Shown here: positions 21,001-30,000 of the stretch, piece after piece
How positions within the stretch are numbered: position 1 is the first letter of the stretch
Layout: every line of letters begins with the position of its first letter
Assembly: GCF_054482595.1 (NCBI RefSeq)
Contig: NZ_CM137008.1
Length of the DNA stretch: 64,000 nucleotides
Reading direction: 5' to 3' (one strand)
Program-made: the position numbers

Positions 21001-24000
21001 CATGTGCGGATTAAATCCCGCGACCCGCACCAGCATCCGGCGATTCTGTTTAACTACATGTCGCACGAGCAGGACTGGCAGGAGTTCCGCGACGCAATTC
21101 GCATCACCCGCGAGATCATGCATCAACCCGCGCTGGATCAGTATCGTGGCCGCGAAATCAGCCCCGGCACGGAATGTCAGACGGATGAACAGCTCGATGA
21201 GTTCGTGCGTAACCACGCCGAAACCGCCTTCCATCCGTGCGGTACCTGCAAAATGGGTTACGACGAGATGTCCGTGGTTGACGGCGAAGGCCGCGTACAC
21301 GGGTTAGAAGGCCTGCGTGTGGTGGATGCGTCGATTATGCCGCAGATTATCACCGGGAATTTGAACGCCACGACAATTATGATTGGCGAGAAAATAGCGG
21401 ATATGATTCGTGGACAGGAAGCGCTGCCGAGGAGCACGGCGGGATATTTTGTGGCAAATGGGATGCCGGTGAGAGCGAAAAAAATGAGTCGTGATTTGAA
21501 CTGACTCAGGAACCGATCAGATTGAGAGTTACCGTTCCAGGTATGGGGACAGAATCGTTATATAAAACATAGGGGTAACTCTCATGCTTCATAGTGACAA
21601 CCTCGCCAGCAAATTCTAAGCTGACTCGTTCAATCTCGCTGATGAAGGTGCTATGAATGCACTGATAAACCGCAGGTGAAATGCCACTCAGCTTAAGAAT
21701 TACGCCGCTAGTGTTCCTGGCTATGGTGACTTGTTCACTCCCGCTCACGGTTAGCATATACGAAAAGGGTTCTTGTAACGAGGACAAAAATAAGTCAGAC
21801 CAAAACAACGTGGAGCTTTAAACACAATTCGTATAATTTATTAACAGTGATTTATTTTTACTCTTCTTTAATTAATCATCATGCTTAAATATTTTTTAGC
21901 ACAAGATTATCGCTTCGCTAACATTTTAGTTTACATTGATTTCCAATTGATAATAAAAAGTTGTTAATAAGTTTATGCGAAAAATAAAAATTGTTGAAAT
22001 ACTCTCCAGCAAATGAATCAAAAATAAACAAATTAATATTTACAAAAAGCAAAAAACTATTTAAGAGAACATCTTTAATTTATTAGCAGAACCCATCAAT
22101 AATGATTTACTTACGACTAAAAAATATCTTACAACAATGTGTTATTGTAAATTAACGGGAATGATATTAAATTTTTATTTTCTACACCACAACTTCATTG
22201 AACGACAAAATGCATATAAAATCAATAAGATAAATAATAAAGACAACCTCATAAGAAATAACGTCAAATATCTCAAAACTACTAAACATCACTAAAACAT
22301 TAGACGTAACACACATCCCCCACGCCCTGTAATTCATAGCTTTTATATTTATTTTTTCACATCAATGTAGATAAAAACACGCATTAAAAATGGCTTGTAG
22401 AAAAGCAGCACAATAAATAGTTCATATTTAGTCTATTGCGTAGAACTACTATTCAAAAAATCTTATTAATGAGATAATGAGATTACATCGATAACGTTCT
22501 GATTGCAGGCATACTTATCTGGGTGTGCCTCTCTTTTTTACAACTGTACACGGTGGCGTATGACGAGAAAATATCTCACACAGGATGAAGTCTACAGGCT
22601 GATGGATGCAGCCCAGAGCATGTCCTTTCCTGAAAGAAATCGCTGTCTAATTATGATGGCTTTCATTCACGGTTTTAGGGCCAGTGAACTTCTTGATTTA
22701 CGTTTATCCGATATTGATGCATCAGGAAAACAACTTAATATTCGGCGGATTAAAAATGGTTTCTCGACAACACATCCTCTTCTTCCTGATGAATATAATT
22801 TGATCAAGTTGTGGCTTAAGCAGAGGAAGTTAATTGAAAACGGAGTTGAAGGAGACTGGCTTTTTCTCTCCCGGAAACGCCGCCCTATCAGCAGACAACA
22901 TTTTTTTTCTATCATTCGTGAGGCTGGAAGACGTGCAGGATTAGCTGTAAAAGCACATCCTCATATGTTACGTCATGCCTGTGGTTTTGCTCTGGCTGAC
23001 AATGGTGTCGATACCCGACTACTTCAGGATTATCTGGGTCATCGAAATATCCAGCATACTGTCAGATACACAGCCAGTAATGCTGCTCGATTTAAAGGGG
23101 TGTGGAAAAAAAAGCCTCGTTAAAACAGTACCTTCTGATTCAAAATGTCAGATTCCTACGTTTTCCTCAATTCTTCCATAAAAAAACAGCCCATTCAATT
23201 CAATAAAACACATAACATGTTGATATTTCTCGCTAAAGTAAAATAACCCCATGATTTGAAATGATTAACCGCCAAGGTCATACCAGTGATTAACTTTCAC
23301 TCATGTTGTTAACATGCAACCAAATTAAAAACAATAAAAATCAAACAAATTAGATTTATATTCCAAGAAAATTAAATATTCAGGCAATTAAACCAAACCT
23401 GACATTTTGAATCAAAATGTCAGGTTTGGTAGCAATGGCGTGGACGAGTCTGAATGAAGAAGCCTCTGGTTATTATCAGTGCCTGTCAGTTCACCAGGCT
23501 GGCACTGGAGTCTCTCATCCCAACGGACAGGTATCTCGTGCGGGTGTACAGCAACGTCACTACAGAGGTTGAATTCATTTTAAAGACCTCCTGTGGCTAC
23601 CTGTTAGCTGATATCCCTTCGCTTCCTTCGGGGGAGTTGGTTCTTCTGGCTTGTCTTGTCCGCTTGCGGAGTGATGCCGGGCAATGGCAGGTCTGCCTGA
23701 CCGGTGACTCCGACTGGTTCGATAATGCTCCTGCTGCAAGTCTGTACTATGGCTTCCCACGCATAAGCACCCTGCTGACAGCGAGTCGTTATCAGAATCA
23801 AATTATCCGCTGGTTACTACGTCCTTTGCCCGGCGATATGAGTGATTTCTGGCTGCTGACTGCACGGGAGTTGAGCGTGCTTAAGATTCTGATGCAGGGC
23901 ATGAGTTTCAGTGAGATTGCCCGTTATGAACAACGCAGTTCAAAGACCCTGCATGCGATTGCCACACGGGCATTAATGAAACTTGGACTGGGAACTCTGA

Positions 24001-27000: not shown

Positions 27001-30000
27001 CACGGCAGATGTTCGCCTGATGAATGGTGGCGGTACCATCAAAGCTGACTTTAACACCAATGGTTTCGGTGCGATGGTTAAAGGCGGTTACACATGGAAA
27101 GACGGTAATGGCCTGTTTATTCAGCCATATGCCAAACTGTCTGCGCTGACTCTGGAAGGTGTGGATTATCAGCTCAACGGCGTGGACGTTCATTCTGACA
27201 GCTATAACTCTGTGTTGGGTGAGGCCGGTACGCGCGTGGGTTATGACTTCGCTGTGGGCAACGCGAGCGTTAAACCTTATCTGAATCTGGCCGCACTGAA
27301 CGAATTCTCTGATGGCAACAAAGTCCGTCTGGGTGATGAGTCTGTCAATGCCAGCATTGACGGTGCAGCATTCCGCGTGGGCGCAGGTGTACAGGCTGAT
27401 ATCACCAAAAACATGGGAGCATATGCAAGCCTTGACTACACCAAAGGTGACGACATTGAGAACCCGCTACAGGGTGTAGTTGGTATCAATGTGACCTGGT
27501 AAGAATAAAGCAGTCGGTTCCCCTGTCGGCTGTTATACCCCCTGCAGGCAGCAGTATGCTGCCTGCAGGCTATAAATATCCAGTATTCATGATGCTGGTT
27601 TTTTGCTGATATTTAACCCGAACATTCCTGATACAGACTATTAATACAACCTTATCTGCGACAGATTTCATTTTCTGGATATATTATGAATGAACAAATC
27701 AAACAGGATATCGATCTGATTGAGATTTTATTTTATCTGAAGAAAAAGATTCGTGTTATCCTTTTTATTATGGCTATCTGTATGGCAATGGTGCTGTTGT
27801 TTCTGTATATCAATAAAGACAATATAAAAGTGATTTACAGCCTAAAAATAAACCAGACAACACCCGGCATACTTGTTAACTGTGATAGCAATAATAACTT
27901 TGCCTGTCAGACCACAATGACTGAAGATGTTATTCAGCGAATTACTACATTTTTTCAGACCAGCCCAGATGTCAAGAACAGAGAAATAAAGCTGGAATGG
28001 TCAGGAGATAAGAGAGATTTACCAACTGCTGAAGCGGAAATATCTCGCGTGCAGGCGTCTATTATCAAATGGTATGCGTCAGAATACCATAATGGCAGGC
28101 AAGTTCTTGATGAGATACAAACGCCTTCAGCAATTAACAGTGAGCTTTATACAAAAATGATATACCTGACCAGGAACTGGTCATTGTATCCGAACGGTGA
28201 TGGCTGTGTAACTATAAGCTCACCAGAAATAAAACATAAATACCCTGCTGCCATTTGCCTGGCTCTGGGATTTTTTCTAAGCATTGTGATTTCTGTAATG
28301 TTTTGCCTTGTCAAAAAAATGGTAGATGAATACCAACAAAACTCTGGGCAGTAATAAACAGCATTCTGATAGAGAGTGCCTGTATAAAGCTGAAGTGACA
28401 ATGACCGGGAAGGGAACCCGTTTTCAGGAATGGATGCCTGTCTTTTTCACTGTAAATATCCTGGCATTAGTAATGCCAGGATATTTACAGAAGAGGAGCA
28501 TAACCATGACGGAACGGGGTTAAGTCAGGTTGTCCTTAACGCTATTTTCAACCTCGTATGCCTTCTTCAGGTTTATGTCCAGACTTCATACCTCTCTCAG
28601 CAATCCTCAATAATCAGATACACCGCTTTCACCGGACCATGAACCCCGACGACTTTGATAAGCTCAATGTCCGCCGTTGAGCTGGGACCACTGATGATGT
28701 TAATACATGACGGCATGCATTCACCGGCCTGCGCTTTCTGATGCAATCTTTCTGCGAGTTGCGCTACACGCGGCAGAATAGTGCTTTTACGCAGGATAAA
28801 AAGAGATGATTCCGGGAGCAGGCTCAATGAACGCCCACGCTCGGCGGCGGAAAAAAGAACCACGCCTCCCGATTCGGTTAAACCATATTCAGCATACACG
28901 ACACCCACTTTAGCCTGCTCTGCCTGCGAGATATTCTCGGCACCTTTCGCCGGATCCCAAACAACGGCATTGCATTCCTGCTGCAAACGTTCGCTAATCC
29001 CTAATTCCTCCAGCCTCGTGTCACCGCTAATCACGACCGACTGATCTCCCAGCTCTTTACACAGTCGTATTGCAGCTTCTGCCGCCTTCGCCTCGCTGGT
29101 CAGTTCACAGCGCGTCAACATAACATCGCTGGCAAACTGAATAAACGCGTCACAGCGCTGCTGTTGGTTAAGTTCGGTAAGCCGCTCGTTAGCATAGTTG
29201 TTAAGCGGCGCATCTTCTGCTTGCGGTTCAAGTCGCAGCGGGCGACCCAGTGCCTGAGCAACGTTATTCAAAAATTCGCCTCGATTATCCATTCTTTTTC
29301 TCCTGCGCCTGATGTTTCTTAAACCAACTACGGAAACTCTCTCCGTCAGCTTCAGGAAGATCGCGTGCTTCCATCCAGTCGCTAATCGCGCCAAATTTGA
29401 GTGGAGTTTTGCCGCCATTGATAAACCAGCTTGCCGCATGAGCGCCGGCCATCATCCCGACTTTCCACAATCCTGGATGACTATTGGCATAAGCGAACAT
29501 TTTTATCGCCCGTTGCTCTGCTTTTGCGGTGATCCCTTTTTCAGCCATCACCCGACGATGACGCAAAATCAGTTTTGACAGCGGAATACGCACTGGACAC
29601 ACGTTGTCACAAGCTGTGCATAAAGAGCAGGCGTAGGGTAAATCTTTAAAATCTTTATAGCCGCCAAGTAGCGGAGAAATCACCGCACCAATTGGCCCTG
29701 GATAAATAGAGCCATATCCATGACCGCCAATATGGCGATATGCCGGACAAGTATTCATACAAGCCCCGCAGCGAATACAGCGCAGCACATCCCGAAATTC
29801 AGAGGCCAGCACCTCAGAACGCCCGTTATCGACAATAACCAGATGAAACTCTTCAGGACCATCAACGTGCCCCGCTTCGCGCGGTCCTGTCAGCCAGGTG
29901 TTGTATCCCGTCAAACGTGCACCAACGGCACTGCGCGCCAGCATGGTGATCAATACATCTACCTCGGCAAACGTGGGGGCAATACGCTCCATTCCCATCA

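What the first reader, a model, noticed from the sequence alone, without database searches (positions are those of the whole stretch)
22503..27502. Recombinase, switch, tandem LuxR regulators and autotransporter form one accessory module between betA and ykgH
In the K-12 gene order as I recall it, ykgH lies next to betA. Here about 6 kb separates them: an AT-rich leader, a FimB/E-like recombinase, the invertible element, two consecutive LuxR-type genes and a 765-aa AIDA-type autotransporter. The second regulator (24402-25163) has a LuxR-like C-terminus but an N-terminal half with no recognisable domain, so it may be a divergent paralog or a decaying copy. The whole unit looks like a horizontally acquired phase-variable adhesin cassette.
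Basis: partly seen in the sequence, partly recalled or inferred. Interest (0 to 1): 0.7.

Follow-up and report, generated by a model that had tools for sequence, protein, structure and literature searches.

The report
Known E. coli island PAI-X (fimX-hyxRAB)

Summary
Window 21594-27578 is the 5,985-bp island known as PAI-X, the UpaB cluster or GI-4. It carries ipbA/fimX (tyrosine invertase), the 279-bp invertible element hyxS with 16-bp inverted repeats, hyxR (=autA), hyxA (=autR) and hyxB (=upaB).

The region is 100% identical to strain XH990 and about 95% identical to CFT073. Of 5,426 complete E. coli genomes, 1,891 carry the switch. K-12-like genomes have an empty betA-ykgH junction.

The switch occurs in both orientations in public assemblies: 1,781 genomes match the window and 16 are flipped. 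Six of the flipped ones are annotated with only a fragment of the recombinase gene.

HyxA has no sequence-detectable LuxR domain in Pfam, NCBIfam or HH-suite. An AlphaFold model (pLDDT 77) nevertheless gives a receiver-like domain lacking the phospho-acceptor Asp, followed by a four-helix HTH, and it matches FixJ/RcsB-type regulators. HyxA is also not decaying.

Direct control by the switch is published only for hyxR. upaB has its own promoter, bound by both regulators.

Novelty: already known. Interest: low.

The parts
21594..27578 (.). Accessory island PAI-X / UpaB cluster / GI-4, 5,985 bp. The borders have a 3-nt ATA ambiguity.
   Evidence: Aligned by eye to the empty betA-ykgH junction of K-12-derived EV36. 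G+C is 43.3%; the published figure for the UpaB cluster is 43.08%.
21809..22559 (+). AT-rich leader upstream of ipbA (27% G+C). RefSeq places only a 44-aa hypothetical ORF here, on the minus strand at 22182-22316.
22560..23123 (+). ipbA (= fimX = hbiF), a FimB/FimE-family tyrosine DNA invertase of 187 aa. The catalytic motifs are present: R40, H135-x-x-R138, H161, Y170.
   Evidence: NCBIfam NF007370, 250.8 bits against a cut-off of 221. RefSeq annotation of the 100%-identical strain. Motif positions.
23136..23414 (.). hyxS invertible element, 279 bp including both repeats, 29% G+C. The window carries the majority orientation, the same as the CFT073 reference.
   Evidence: Inverted repeats. Census: 1,781 genomes in this orientation and 16 flipped. 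CFT073 alignment. The literature gives 16-bp repeats and FimX as the only enzyme that inverts it.
23136..23151 (+). Left inverted repeat (IRL) TGATTCAAAATGTCAG, 12 bp after the ipbA stop codon.
23399..23414 (-). Right inverted repeat (IRR), CTGACATTTTGAATCA on the + strand.
23392..23430 (.). Perfect 19+1+19 palindrome that contains IRR and a third copy of TCAAAATGTCAG (23412-23423, same sense as IRL). I read it as a pair of inverted recombinase half-sites around a TGA(A/T)TCA core. A palindromic IRR is also present in two diverged switches.
   Evidence: I3; L005 I3; L008 I11. The half-site reading is inference.
23276..23286 (.). GGTCATACCAG, the only long block inside the switch that is conserved in the diverged switch of L005. 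On the minus strand it reads TGgTATGAC, which resembles an extended -10 and would face hyxR after inversion.
   Evidence: Alignment. Its role as a promoter is inference; the consensus scan found no promoter inside the switch.
23454..24248 (+). hyxR (= autA, APECO1-1682), a LuxR/GerE-type regulator of 264 aa, with the HTH at residues 135-181.
   Evidence: Pfam PF00196, E 3.9e-6. The autA cloning primer matches 23454-23477 exactly.
24348..24374 (.). Perfect 13+1+13 palindrome GCACGCTGTACAG-C-CTGTACAGCGTGC in the hyxR-hyxA gap. It has no T-tail, so it is not a canonical terminator.
   Evidence: I10; z-score -1.6
24402..25163 (+). hyxA (= autR, APECO1-1683), 253 aa. Predicted as a receiver-like domain (residues 1-119, with no Asp at the end of beta3 and no acidic pair after beta1, but K98-P99 retained), a linker helix, and a four-helix HTH (153-205).
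   Evidence: AlphaFold model, pLDDT 77. Foldseek top hits are FixJ, RcsB, StyR and VraR, E 8e-6. The autR primer matches 24402-24423. Residue positions.
25205..27502 (+). hyxB (= upaB), a type Va AIDA-I-type autotransporter adhesin of 765 aa, with the beta-barrel domain at residues 370-765.
   Evidence: PDB 6BEA UpaB, E 9e-255 over residues 26-489. TIGR01414, E 1.3e-67.
27541..27569 (+). 13-bp-stem hairpin CCTGCAGGCAGCA-GTA-TGCTGCCTGCAGG, 39 bp after the hyxB stop and just inside the right border of the island. Probably the hyxB transcript end.
   Evidence: Read directly from the sequence. The function is inference.

Best explanation
The region is pathogenicity island PAI-X, also published as the UpaB cluster and as GI-4. 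It works as a phase-variable regulatory cascade.

The tyrosine invertase IpbA/FimX binds the two 16-bp inverted repeats and flips the 279-bp hyxS element. One orientation directs transcription into hyxR. HyxR (AutA), a LuxR-type DNA-binding protein, activates the separate upaB promoter. HyxA (AutR), a phosphorylation-independent receiver-like/HTH protein, binds the same promoter and counteracts HyxR. UpaB is then exported as a surface beta-helix adhesin that binds fibronectin and glycosaminoglycans. Both regulators also act on genes outside the island: hmpA, O-antigen chain length, K1 capsule and the acid fitness island.

Shown here:
- locus identity and island borders;
- the inverted repeats;
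- natural occurrence of both switch orientations;
- domain and fold assignments;
- distribution across E. coli genomes.

Taken from the literature:
- FimX dependence of inversion;
- the effect of the switch on hyxR;
- promoter binding by both regulators;
- adhesin function.

Inferred:
- the window's orientation (the 99% majority) is the OFF state;
- each repeat is a pair of recombinase half-sites around a TGATTCA core.
For: - The region is 100% identical to strain XH990, whose RefSeq annotation reads ipbA, hyxR, hyxA, hyxB between betA and ykgH. CFT073 has the same order.
- The 16-bp repeats match the published repeat length for hyxS.
- The switch is flipped in 16 genomes against 1,781 in the window orientation, with breakpoints inside the repeats.
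- The invertase family models are passed.
- HyxR has a GerE domain.
- The HyxA model matches FixJ/RcsB-type regulators.
- HyxB is UpaB, PDB 6BEA.
- Literature: hyxS is inverted only by FimX and controls hyxR. PAI-X consists of fimX and hyxRAB, and hyxA and hyxR mutants have altered O-antigen length. AutA and AutR bind PupaB, and activation by AutA is suppressed by AutR. Primers map AutA to HyxR and AutR to HyxA. UpaB binds fibronectin and glycosaminoglycans. An 'invertase inversion' at hyxR was found in clones with transient phage resistance.
- A diverged copy of the module (L005) keeps the gene order, the 241-nt repeat spacing and the palindromic IRR.
Against: - The ON/OFF state of the window could not be assigned. 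The consensus scan finds no sigma-70 promoter inside the switch in either direction, and the primary paper (Bateman and Seed 2012) is not held.
- Whether the switch affects upaB is only indirect. RT-PCR in APEC found four separate transcripts, whereas other papers write 'hyxRAB operon'.
- HyxA's HTH has no statistical support from sequence profiles (hhalign probability below 1%) and rests on an 8-sequence AlphaFold model.
- The N-terminal fold of HyxR is unresolved (pLDDT 47).
Confidence: 0.92

Rival explanations
1. One phase-variable operon. In the ON orientation a promoter inside hyxS transcribes hyxR, hyxA and hyxB as a single mRNA, so the adhesin itself is directly ON or OFF.
For: - All three genes are on one strand with short gaps of 153 and 41 bp.
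- There is no terminator-like site in either gap, and the palindrome at 24348-24374 has no T-tail.
- Two papers refer to a 'hyxRAB operon'.
- The negative RT-PCR was done on cultures in which the switch is probably almost entirely in the majority orientation, so read-through in the rare flipped cells would have been missed (inference).
Against: - RT-PCR across all three intergenic regions was negative in APEC DE205B.
- upaB has its own promoter fragment, which is bound by both regulators and is active in in-vitro transcription.
Confidence: 0.3
2. HyxA is a decaying, non-functional duplicate of HyxR.
For: - No Pfam or NCBIfam domain is found.
- Within E. coli the dN/dS is about 0.7-1.0, but this rests on only about ten substitutions.
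Against: - The ORF is intact in the window, in CFT073, in the diverged L005, and in an EHEC-type allele where its three neighbours are pseudogenes.
- dN/dS is about 0.2 against L005.
- The family is conserved down to 27% identity, with 17 invariant columns, most of them in the C-terminal HTH region.
- The fold model is confident.
- No sequence similarity to HyxR is detectable, so it is not a recent duplicate.
- Mutant phenotypes and DNA binding have been published.
Confidence: 0.03
3. The K-12-type empty junction arose by deletion from an ancestral, island-bearing Escherichia chromosome, rather than the island being a recent insertion.
For: - The borders show no tRNA, att-type direct repeat or integrase-type mobility gene, only a 3-nt ATA microhomology.
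- A 100-codon ORF on the minus strand (21506-21808) crosses the left border, and its last 29 codons survive in K-12-type genomes.
- The island is found across pathotypes and phylogroups.
Against: - G+C is 43%, against 56% for the bet genes.
- Between the window and CFT073, island genes have a lower synonymous divergence (0.02-0.08) than betA (0.20), which suggests later exchange between lineages.
- The junction-spanning ORF has no homologue outside this locus and is not annotated by RefSeq.
Confidence: 0.25

Closest known systems
PAI-X (fimX-hyxS-hyxRAB) of UPEC UTI89/CFT073/EC958, equal to the UpaB cluster / GI-4 of APEC
   Same: Same chromosomal site (betA-ykgH), the same four genes in the same order, the same 16-bp inverted repeats and the same G+C content. 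Nucleotide identity to B2 strains such as CFT073 is about 95%.
   Different: Nothing structural. The window carries a rarer allele: only 24 records are at least 99% identical over 21400-27800.
ipuA/ipuB-ipuS-ipuR-upaE module of CFT073
   Same: The architecture is analogous: Fim-like tyrosine recombinase(s), a roughly 260-bp invertible promoter element, a LuxR-type regulator and an autotransporter adhesin. FimX also inverts ipuS.
   Different: It sits at a different locus. It has 7-bp repeats and two recombinases. Inversion changes the ipuA C-terminus. ipuR and upaE are reported as a two-gene operon driven from the switch. No HyxA-like second regulator is described for it.
Salmonella T1-antigen locus (STM0716 recombinase, switch, STM0717/STM0718, glf-ABC transporter glycan genes)
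   Same: The recombinase is 72% identical to IpbA. The switch sits immediately downstream with 16-bp repeats that share TGATTCAAAA with hyxS. A HyxA homologue (about 40% identity) follows the switch (published).
   Different: The cargo is a polysaccharide biosynthesis cluster instead of an autotransporter. No HyxR homologue is present; a 73-aa ORF takes that position. The outer part of the repeats differs (AAGTTAA against TGTCAG).
fimB/fimE-fimS type 1 fimbrial switch
   Same: The recombinase family is the same and the principle of promoter inversion is the same. FimX also acts on fimS.
   Different: fimS has 9-bp repeats of unrelated sequence and a 314-bp element, and it directly drives the structural operon. 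According to the literature, FimB and FimE do not invert hyxS.
NarL/FixJ-family response regulators (FixJ, RcsB, VraR, DesR)
   Same: The predicted two-domain architecture of HyxA, a (beta-alpha)5 receiver fold plus a four-helix LuxR-type HTH, gives Foldseek probability 1.0 and E 8e-6 over 200-230 aligned columns.
   Different: HyxA lacks the phospho-acceptor Asp and the acidic pair (C7-P8-S9 after beta1; S50-A51 at the end of beta3), and the alignment of eight family members has no invariant Asp at either position. No sequence-profile match is found. TM-scores are low (0.3-0.5) because the relative orientation of the two domains differs.

Membership tests
PAI-X / hyx locus | Located between betA and ykgH, and absent from K-12 | tested here: met
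   The published location is given.
PAI-X / hyx locus | Gene content and order fimX(ipbA)-hyxR-hyxA-hyxB, orthologous to the CFT073/UTI89 genes | tested here: met
   RefSeq names on the identical strain XH990. Protein identities to CFT073: ipbA 99.5%, hyxR 96.6%, hyxA 97.2%, hyxB 94.8%.
PAI-X / hyx locus | hyxS invertible element bounded by 16-bp inverted repeats between fimX and hyxR | tested here: met
   Repeats at 23136-23151 and 23399-23414. The 16-bp length is stated.
PAI-X / hyx locus | The element actually inverts | tested here: met
   A synthetic flipped query matches 16 genomes at 80% or more of its length, 15 of them over the full 479 nt. The window orientation matches 1,781 genomes.
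PAI-X / hyx locus | Inversion depends on FimX and changes hyxR expression | not testable with these tools
   Literature only. The primary paper is not held.
FimB/FimE-family tyrosine DNA invertase | Score above the curated family cut-off | tested here: met
   NF007370, 250.8 bits (cut-off 221); NF007371, 232.8 bits (cut-off 222).
FimB/FimE-family tyrosine DNA invertase | Catalytic R-H-R-(H)-Y residues present | tested here: met
   R40, H135, R138, H161 and Y170, located through the box I and box II motifs. The motif definition comes from general knowledge of tyrosine recombinases.
LuxR/GerE HTH regulators (PF00196) | HyxR: Pfam GerE domain | tested here: met
   E 3.9e-6, residues 135-181. There are also weak NCBIfam hits to FimZ, RcsB, BglJ and EcpR.
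LuxR/GerE HTH regulators (PF00196) | HyxA: sequence-profile match to GerE/LuxR | tested here: not met
   No Pfam hit for HyxA or for any of its 7 homologues. No NCBIfam hit. No relevant hit for the profile against PDB sequences. hhalign against GerE, HyxR and the HyxR family gives probability below 1%.
LuxR/GerE HTH regulators (PF00196) | HyxA: four-helix HTH fold at the C-terminus | tested here: met
   AlphaFold helices at 153-163, 168-174, 179-193 and 201-205, with block-mean pLDDT of 91-97 over residues 151-200. The Foldseek hits are full-length NarL/FixJ regulators. This rests on a prediction from a shallow alignment.
Phospho-accepting NarL/FixJ response regulators | Conserved Asp at the end of beta3 and an acidic pair after beta1 | tested here: not met
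   HyxA has S50-A51-G52 and C7-P8-S9 at those positions, and no invariant Asp occurs there in the family alignment. HyxA therefore resembles this family in fold but is not a canonical member.
Type Va (AIDA-I-type) autotransporter | C-terminal 12-strand beta-barrel translocator plus beta-helix passenger | tested here: met
   TIGR01414, E 1.3e-67, residues 370-765. The passenger matches the UpaB crystal structure 6BEA, and the barrel matches BrkA 3QQ2. The AIDA-I grouping is stated.

The most novel reading that the evidence does not exclude
The FimX-type recombinase, its TGATTCA-core switch with a palindromic distal repeat, and a HyxA-type phosphorylation-independent receiver/HTH protein may form a portable phase-variation control cassette. 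It would have been coupled to different surface cargos: the UpaB autotransporter in Escherichia and the T1 glycan in Salmonella. On this reading HyxA, rather than HyxR, is the conserved regulatory partner. Natural lineages annotated with only an ipbA fragment, with the one I inspected cut by IS elements, would then be frozen in the minority orientation.
Probability: 0.35. Interest if true: 0.35.

Novelty: already known. Interest (0 to 1): 0.1.

Why it matters
Nothing new would follow for the field, because the locus, its switch, both regulators and the adhesin structure are all published. The practical value is correct annotation of this window. It also supplies a few small additions that could guide experiments:

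- The genome-wide orientation census shows the switch flipped in about 1% of assemblies.
- Some natural isolates are annotated with only a recombinase fragment and are locked in the flipped state. They could settle whether upaB is read through from the switch.
- The predicted pseudo-receiver fold of HyxA explains why domain searches fail on it.
- The name mapping is AutA = HyxR and AutR = HyxA. It is easy to get backwards.

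Tried and rejected
- Sequence-based domain assignment of HyxA failed throughout. I tried Pfam on the single sequence and on all eight family members, NCBIfam, a profile against PDB sequences, BLASTP against HyxR, and hhalign against HyxR, the HyxR family and GerE.
- The AlphaFold model of HyxR from a 10-sequence alignment was too poor (pLDDT 47) to say whether its N-terminal half is also receiver-like. 'Tandem paralogues' therefore could not be tested at the fold level.
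- The consensus promoter scan found nothing inside hyxS in either direction, so ON/OFF could not be assigned. My hand-found candidates (TTGAAT-17-AAGAAT, and the conserved TGgTATGAC on the minus strand) are below threshold and remain inference.
- Bateman and Seed 2012, Bateman et al. 2013 and the related Bio-protocol paper are not held.
- The ORF at 21506-21808 (minus strand) crossing the left border has homologues only at this same E. coli locus and no domain. I do not call it a gene.
- I considered that the third repeat copy (23412-23423, direct with respect to IRL) could mediate deletion of the switch, but I did not search for deletion products. The single central A/T asymmetry of the TGA(A/T)TCA core would disfavour it. 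This is inference.
- I did not run the costly genome contigs or metagenome scans, because the answer did not depend on them.

Full report
**What is there.** ORF listing and composition show the following on the + strand:

- the bet genes, with betA ending at 21504;
- a stretch that falls to 24-33% G+C;
- a 330-bp AT-rich gap;
- ORFs of 264 aa (23454-24248) and 253 aa (24402-25163);
- a 765-aa ORF (25205-27502);
- ykgH (27686-28354) and ykgGFE.

The longest inverted repeat in the region flanks the gap after the recombinase. Its exact core is 16 bp, TGATTCAAAATGTCAG, at 23136-23151 and 23399-23414.

**Identity.** Megablast of 21400-27800 against 5,426 complete E. coli genomes gave a 100% match to urine isolate XH990. 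Its RefSeq annotation reads betA; ipbA ('also known as HbiF and FimX'); hyxR; hyxA; hyxB; ykgH. CFT073 has the same arrangement.

[quoted passage not shown] 2013). It is also described as the 'UpaB cluster ... inserted between betA and ykgH', G+C 43.08%, equal to GI-4 of APEC O1 (Zhuge et al. 2016).

The invertible element is the published hyxS. It has 16-bp repeats, controls hyxR, and is inverted by FimX only (Battaglioli et al. 2018; Ooi et al. 2019). HyxB is UpaB: residues 26-489 match the UpaB crystal structure 6BEA at E 9e-255. UpaB is an AIDA-I-type adhesin that binds fibronectin and glycosaminoglycans.

**Borders and distribution.** Aligning the window with the empty betA-ykgH junction of a K-12-derived genome places the accessory DNA at 21594-27578. 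That is 5,985 bp at 43.3% G+C, against 56% for the bet genes. ATA is present at both junctions, and there is no tRNA, att-like repeat or mobility gene other than the invertase.

- 1,831 genomes hold at least 80% of the 6.4-kb query.
- 1,891 genomes hold the switch.
- 5,210 genomes match at least the flanks.

The module is therefore accessory, present in about 35% of complete genomes. This agrees with published prevalence of 24/50 genomes and 36% of APEC.

**The switch flips in nature.** I queried the switch with 100-bp flanks in the window orientation, and then again with the 279-bp element reverse-complemented in silico.

- 1,781 genomes match the window form in one piece.
- 16 genomes match the flipped form at 80% or more of the query, 15 of them over the full length.

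The breakpoints therefore lie within the 16-bp repeats, and about 1% of assemblies were captured in the minority orientation. The CFT073 reference has the window orientation.

Six of the 16 flipped genomes are annotated with only a partial 'DNA recombinase'. In the one I inspected, ipbA is cut by IS66/IS100 elements. Since only FimX inverts hyxS, that genome at least is probably locked.

I could not assign ON or OFF. The promoter scan finds nothing in the element and the primary paper is not held. Because Battaglioli et al. describe their recombinase-deleted CFT073 derivatives as hyxS OFF, the majority orientation is probably OFF. That is inference.

**Site architecture (partly new, inferred).** TCAAAATGTCAG occurs three times: at IRL (+), at IRR (-), and again at 23412-23423 (+). 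IRR is therefore the left half of a perfect 19+1+19 palindrome at 23392-23430.

Two diverged switches show the same feature:

- A metagenomic copy of the module (L005) has a palindromic distal repeat, and the spacing between the repeat arms that the tool reports is identical, 241 nt in both. Its proteins are 82% (recombinase), 66% (HyxR), 54% (HyxA) and 41% (UpaB passenger) identical to the window's.
- The Salmonella T1-antigen-type switch (L008) has a recombinase 72% identical to IpbA. Its 16-bp repeats, TGATTCAAAAAGTTAA, share the first ten bases with hyxS, and its distal repeat sits in an imperfect (79% complementary) palindrome.

This fits a tyrosine-recombinase core site: two inverted binding half-sites around a TGA(A/T)TCA crossover region whose single central asymmetry sets the orientation. 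Inside the element the only long block conserved between the window and L005 is GGTCATACCAG (23276-23286). On the minus strand it resembles an extended -10 that would face hyxR after inversion.

**The two regulators.** HyxR has a Pfam GerE/LuxR HTH (residues 135-181, E 3.9e-6).

HyxA has no hit in any sequence-based search:

- Pfam finds nothing, even at E 10, for HyxA or any of its seven homologues.
- NCBIfam finds nothing.
- A profile search of PDB sequences finds nothing relevant.
- BLASTP and hhalign against HyxR, the HyxR family and GerE give probabilities below 1%, although the short aligned stretch falls in the expected HTH register.

A search of 1.84 billion representative proteins found a small family: 29 hits, with the seven best-covering homologues at 27-54% identity. 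Its best-conserved part is the C-terminal segment.

AlphaFold on that alignment gave pLDDT 77 and pTM 0.72. The model has a (beta-alpha)5 domain (residues 1-119), a linker helix, and four helices at 153-205 with block-mean pLDDT of 91-97 over residues 151-200. Foldseek against the PDB returns full-length NarL/FixJ-type regulators as top hits (FixJ, RcsB, StyR, VraR, DesR, LiaR), at E down to 8e-6 and probability 1.0.

The receiver-like domain lacks the acidic pocket. C7-P8-S9 follows beta1 and S50-A51 ends beta3, and the family has no conserved Asp at either position. The K98-P99 motif after beta5 is kept. HyxA is therefore best described as a phosphorylation-independent pseudo-receiver plus LuxR-type HTH protein. 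This agrees with the Phyre2 prediction and the EMSA of Zhuge et al..

**HyxA is not decaying.**

- It is intact in the window, in CFT073 and in L005.
- It is also intact in an EHEC-type allele where ipbA, hyxR, hyxB and ykgH are pseudogenes.
- dN/dS against L005 is about 0.2.
- Mutants have phenotypes.

The HyxR model was too poor to compare the N-terminal domains.

**Name mapping.** The cloning primers in the supplement of Zhuge et al. match the window exactly. The autA primer matches 23454-23477, the start of hyxR. The autR primer matches 24402-24423, the start of hyxA. AutA, the activator of upaB, is therefore HyxR. AutR, which suppresses AutA's activation, is HyxA.

**Mechanism.** The best-supported picture is a cascade. 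FimX flips hyxS, and the orientation sets hyxR transcription (literature). HyxR/AutA activates the separate upaB promoter, and HyxA/AutR binds the same DNA and cancels the activation.

Both regulators also act on genes elsewhere: hmpA, O-antigen chain length, K1 capsule and the acid fitness island. An 'invertase inversion' at hyxR was recovered in clones with transient phage resistance.

The gaps are short, with no terminator-like site, and two papers write 'hyxRAB operon'. The negative RT-PCR was done on cultures that were probably almost entirely in the majority orientation. I give the single-operon model about 0.3.

**Comparison and novelty.** Every defining feature of PAI-X that can be tested in silico is met. 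The analogous ipuA/B-ipuS-ipuR-upaE module and the homologous Salmonella T1-antigen switch with its HyxA homologue STM0718 are also already published.

The finding is therefore already known. My small additions are the orientation census, the flipped genomes annotated with only a recombinase fragment, the conserved palindromic distal repeat, the predicted pseudo-receiver fold of HyxA, and the AutA/AutR mapping. Interest is low (0.1).

Noticed in passing
window 21478-21504: The 3' end of betA has an A7 run here, against A6 in K-12-type genomes and CFT073. The extra A moves the stop from the TGA right after the run to 21502-21504. The result is a 562-aa rather than a 556-aa choline dehydrogenase (1,689 against 1,671 bp in RefSeq annotations). 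Both forms are common among genomes.
   Followed up: partly
window 21506-21808 (minus strand): A 100-codon ORF crosses the left island border at 21594, and its last 29 codons lie in DNA shared with K-12. Its only homologues are at this same E. coli locus (73-98% identity). It has no domain and is not annotated by RefSeq. It could be a remnant hinting that the empty site arose by deletion.
   Followed up: partly
L015 (NZ_AP027899.1, strain 2018-10-2CC) 4035-5475; also hits H52, H53, H55, H56, H57: Six of the 16 genomes with hyxS in the flipped orientation are annotated with only a fragment of ipbA. In 2018-10-2CC it is cut by IS66/IS100 elements. That switch is probably frozen in the minority orientation.
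   Followed up: partly
L014 (NZ_CP115320.1, dog urine isolate CUVET18-565) 5245-6458: An IS3-family element is inserted between ipbA and hyxR, splitting the hyxS switch.
   Followed up: no
L004 (NZ_CP032801.1, bovine strain ERL06-2442) 2424-7117: This is an EHEC-type decayed allele of the island. ipbA is frameshifted and truncated, hyxR has an internal stop, hyxB is truncated with a deletion of about 1 kb, and ykgH has an internal stop. hyxA remains intact.
   Followed up: partly
window 24348-24374: A perfect 13+1+13 palindrome, GCACGCTGTACAG-C-CTGTACAGCGTGC, lies in the hyxR-hyxA intergenic gap. It has no T-tail, and its RNA fold is no more stable than shuffled controls (z = -1.6). It may be a protein-binding site.
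   Followed up: partly
window 22560-27502 against L013 (CFT073): Synonymous divergence between the window strain and CFT073 is lower in the island genes (ipbA 0.04, hyxR 0.08, hyxA 0.02, hyxB 0.08) than in the adjacent core gene betA (0.20). hyxA is the least diverged at silent sites.
   Followed up: no
window 27686-28354 (ykgH): The N-terminus of YkgH gives a weak hit (E 0.0075, residues 4-37) to a polysaccharide chain-length-determinant family (TIGR01006). This is curious, given that the neighbouring hyxA and hyxR mutants alter O-antigen chain length. The hit is probably just a transmembrane-segment match.
   Followed up: no
L010 7030-7665 and L011 5852-6487: The most distant HyxA-family member found (P0021, 27% identity) sits next to 2-hydroxyacid dehydrogenase and pyruvate:ferredoxin oxidoreductase genes, with no recombinase gene called within the roughly 6-7 kb of upstream sequence held. 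The HyxA family is therefore not always linked to a Fim-type switch.
   Followed up: no
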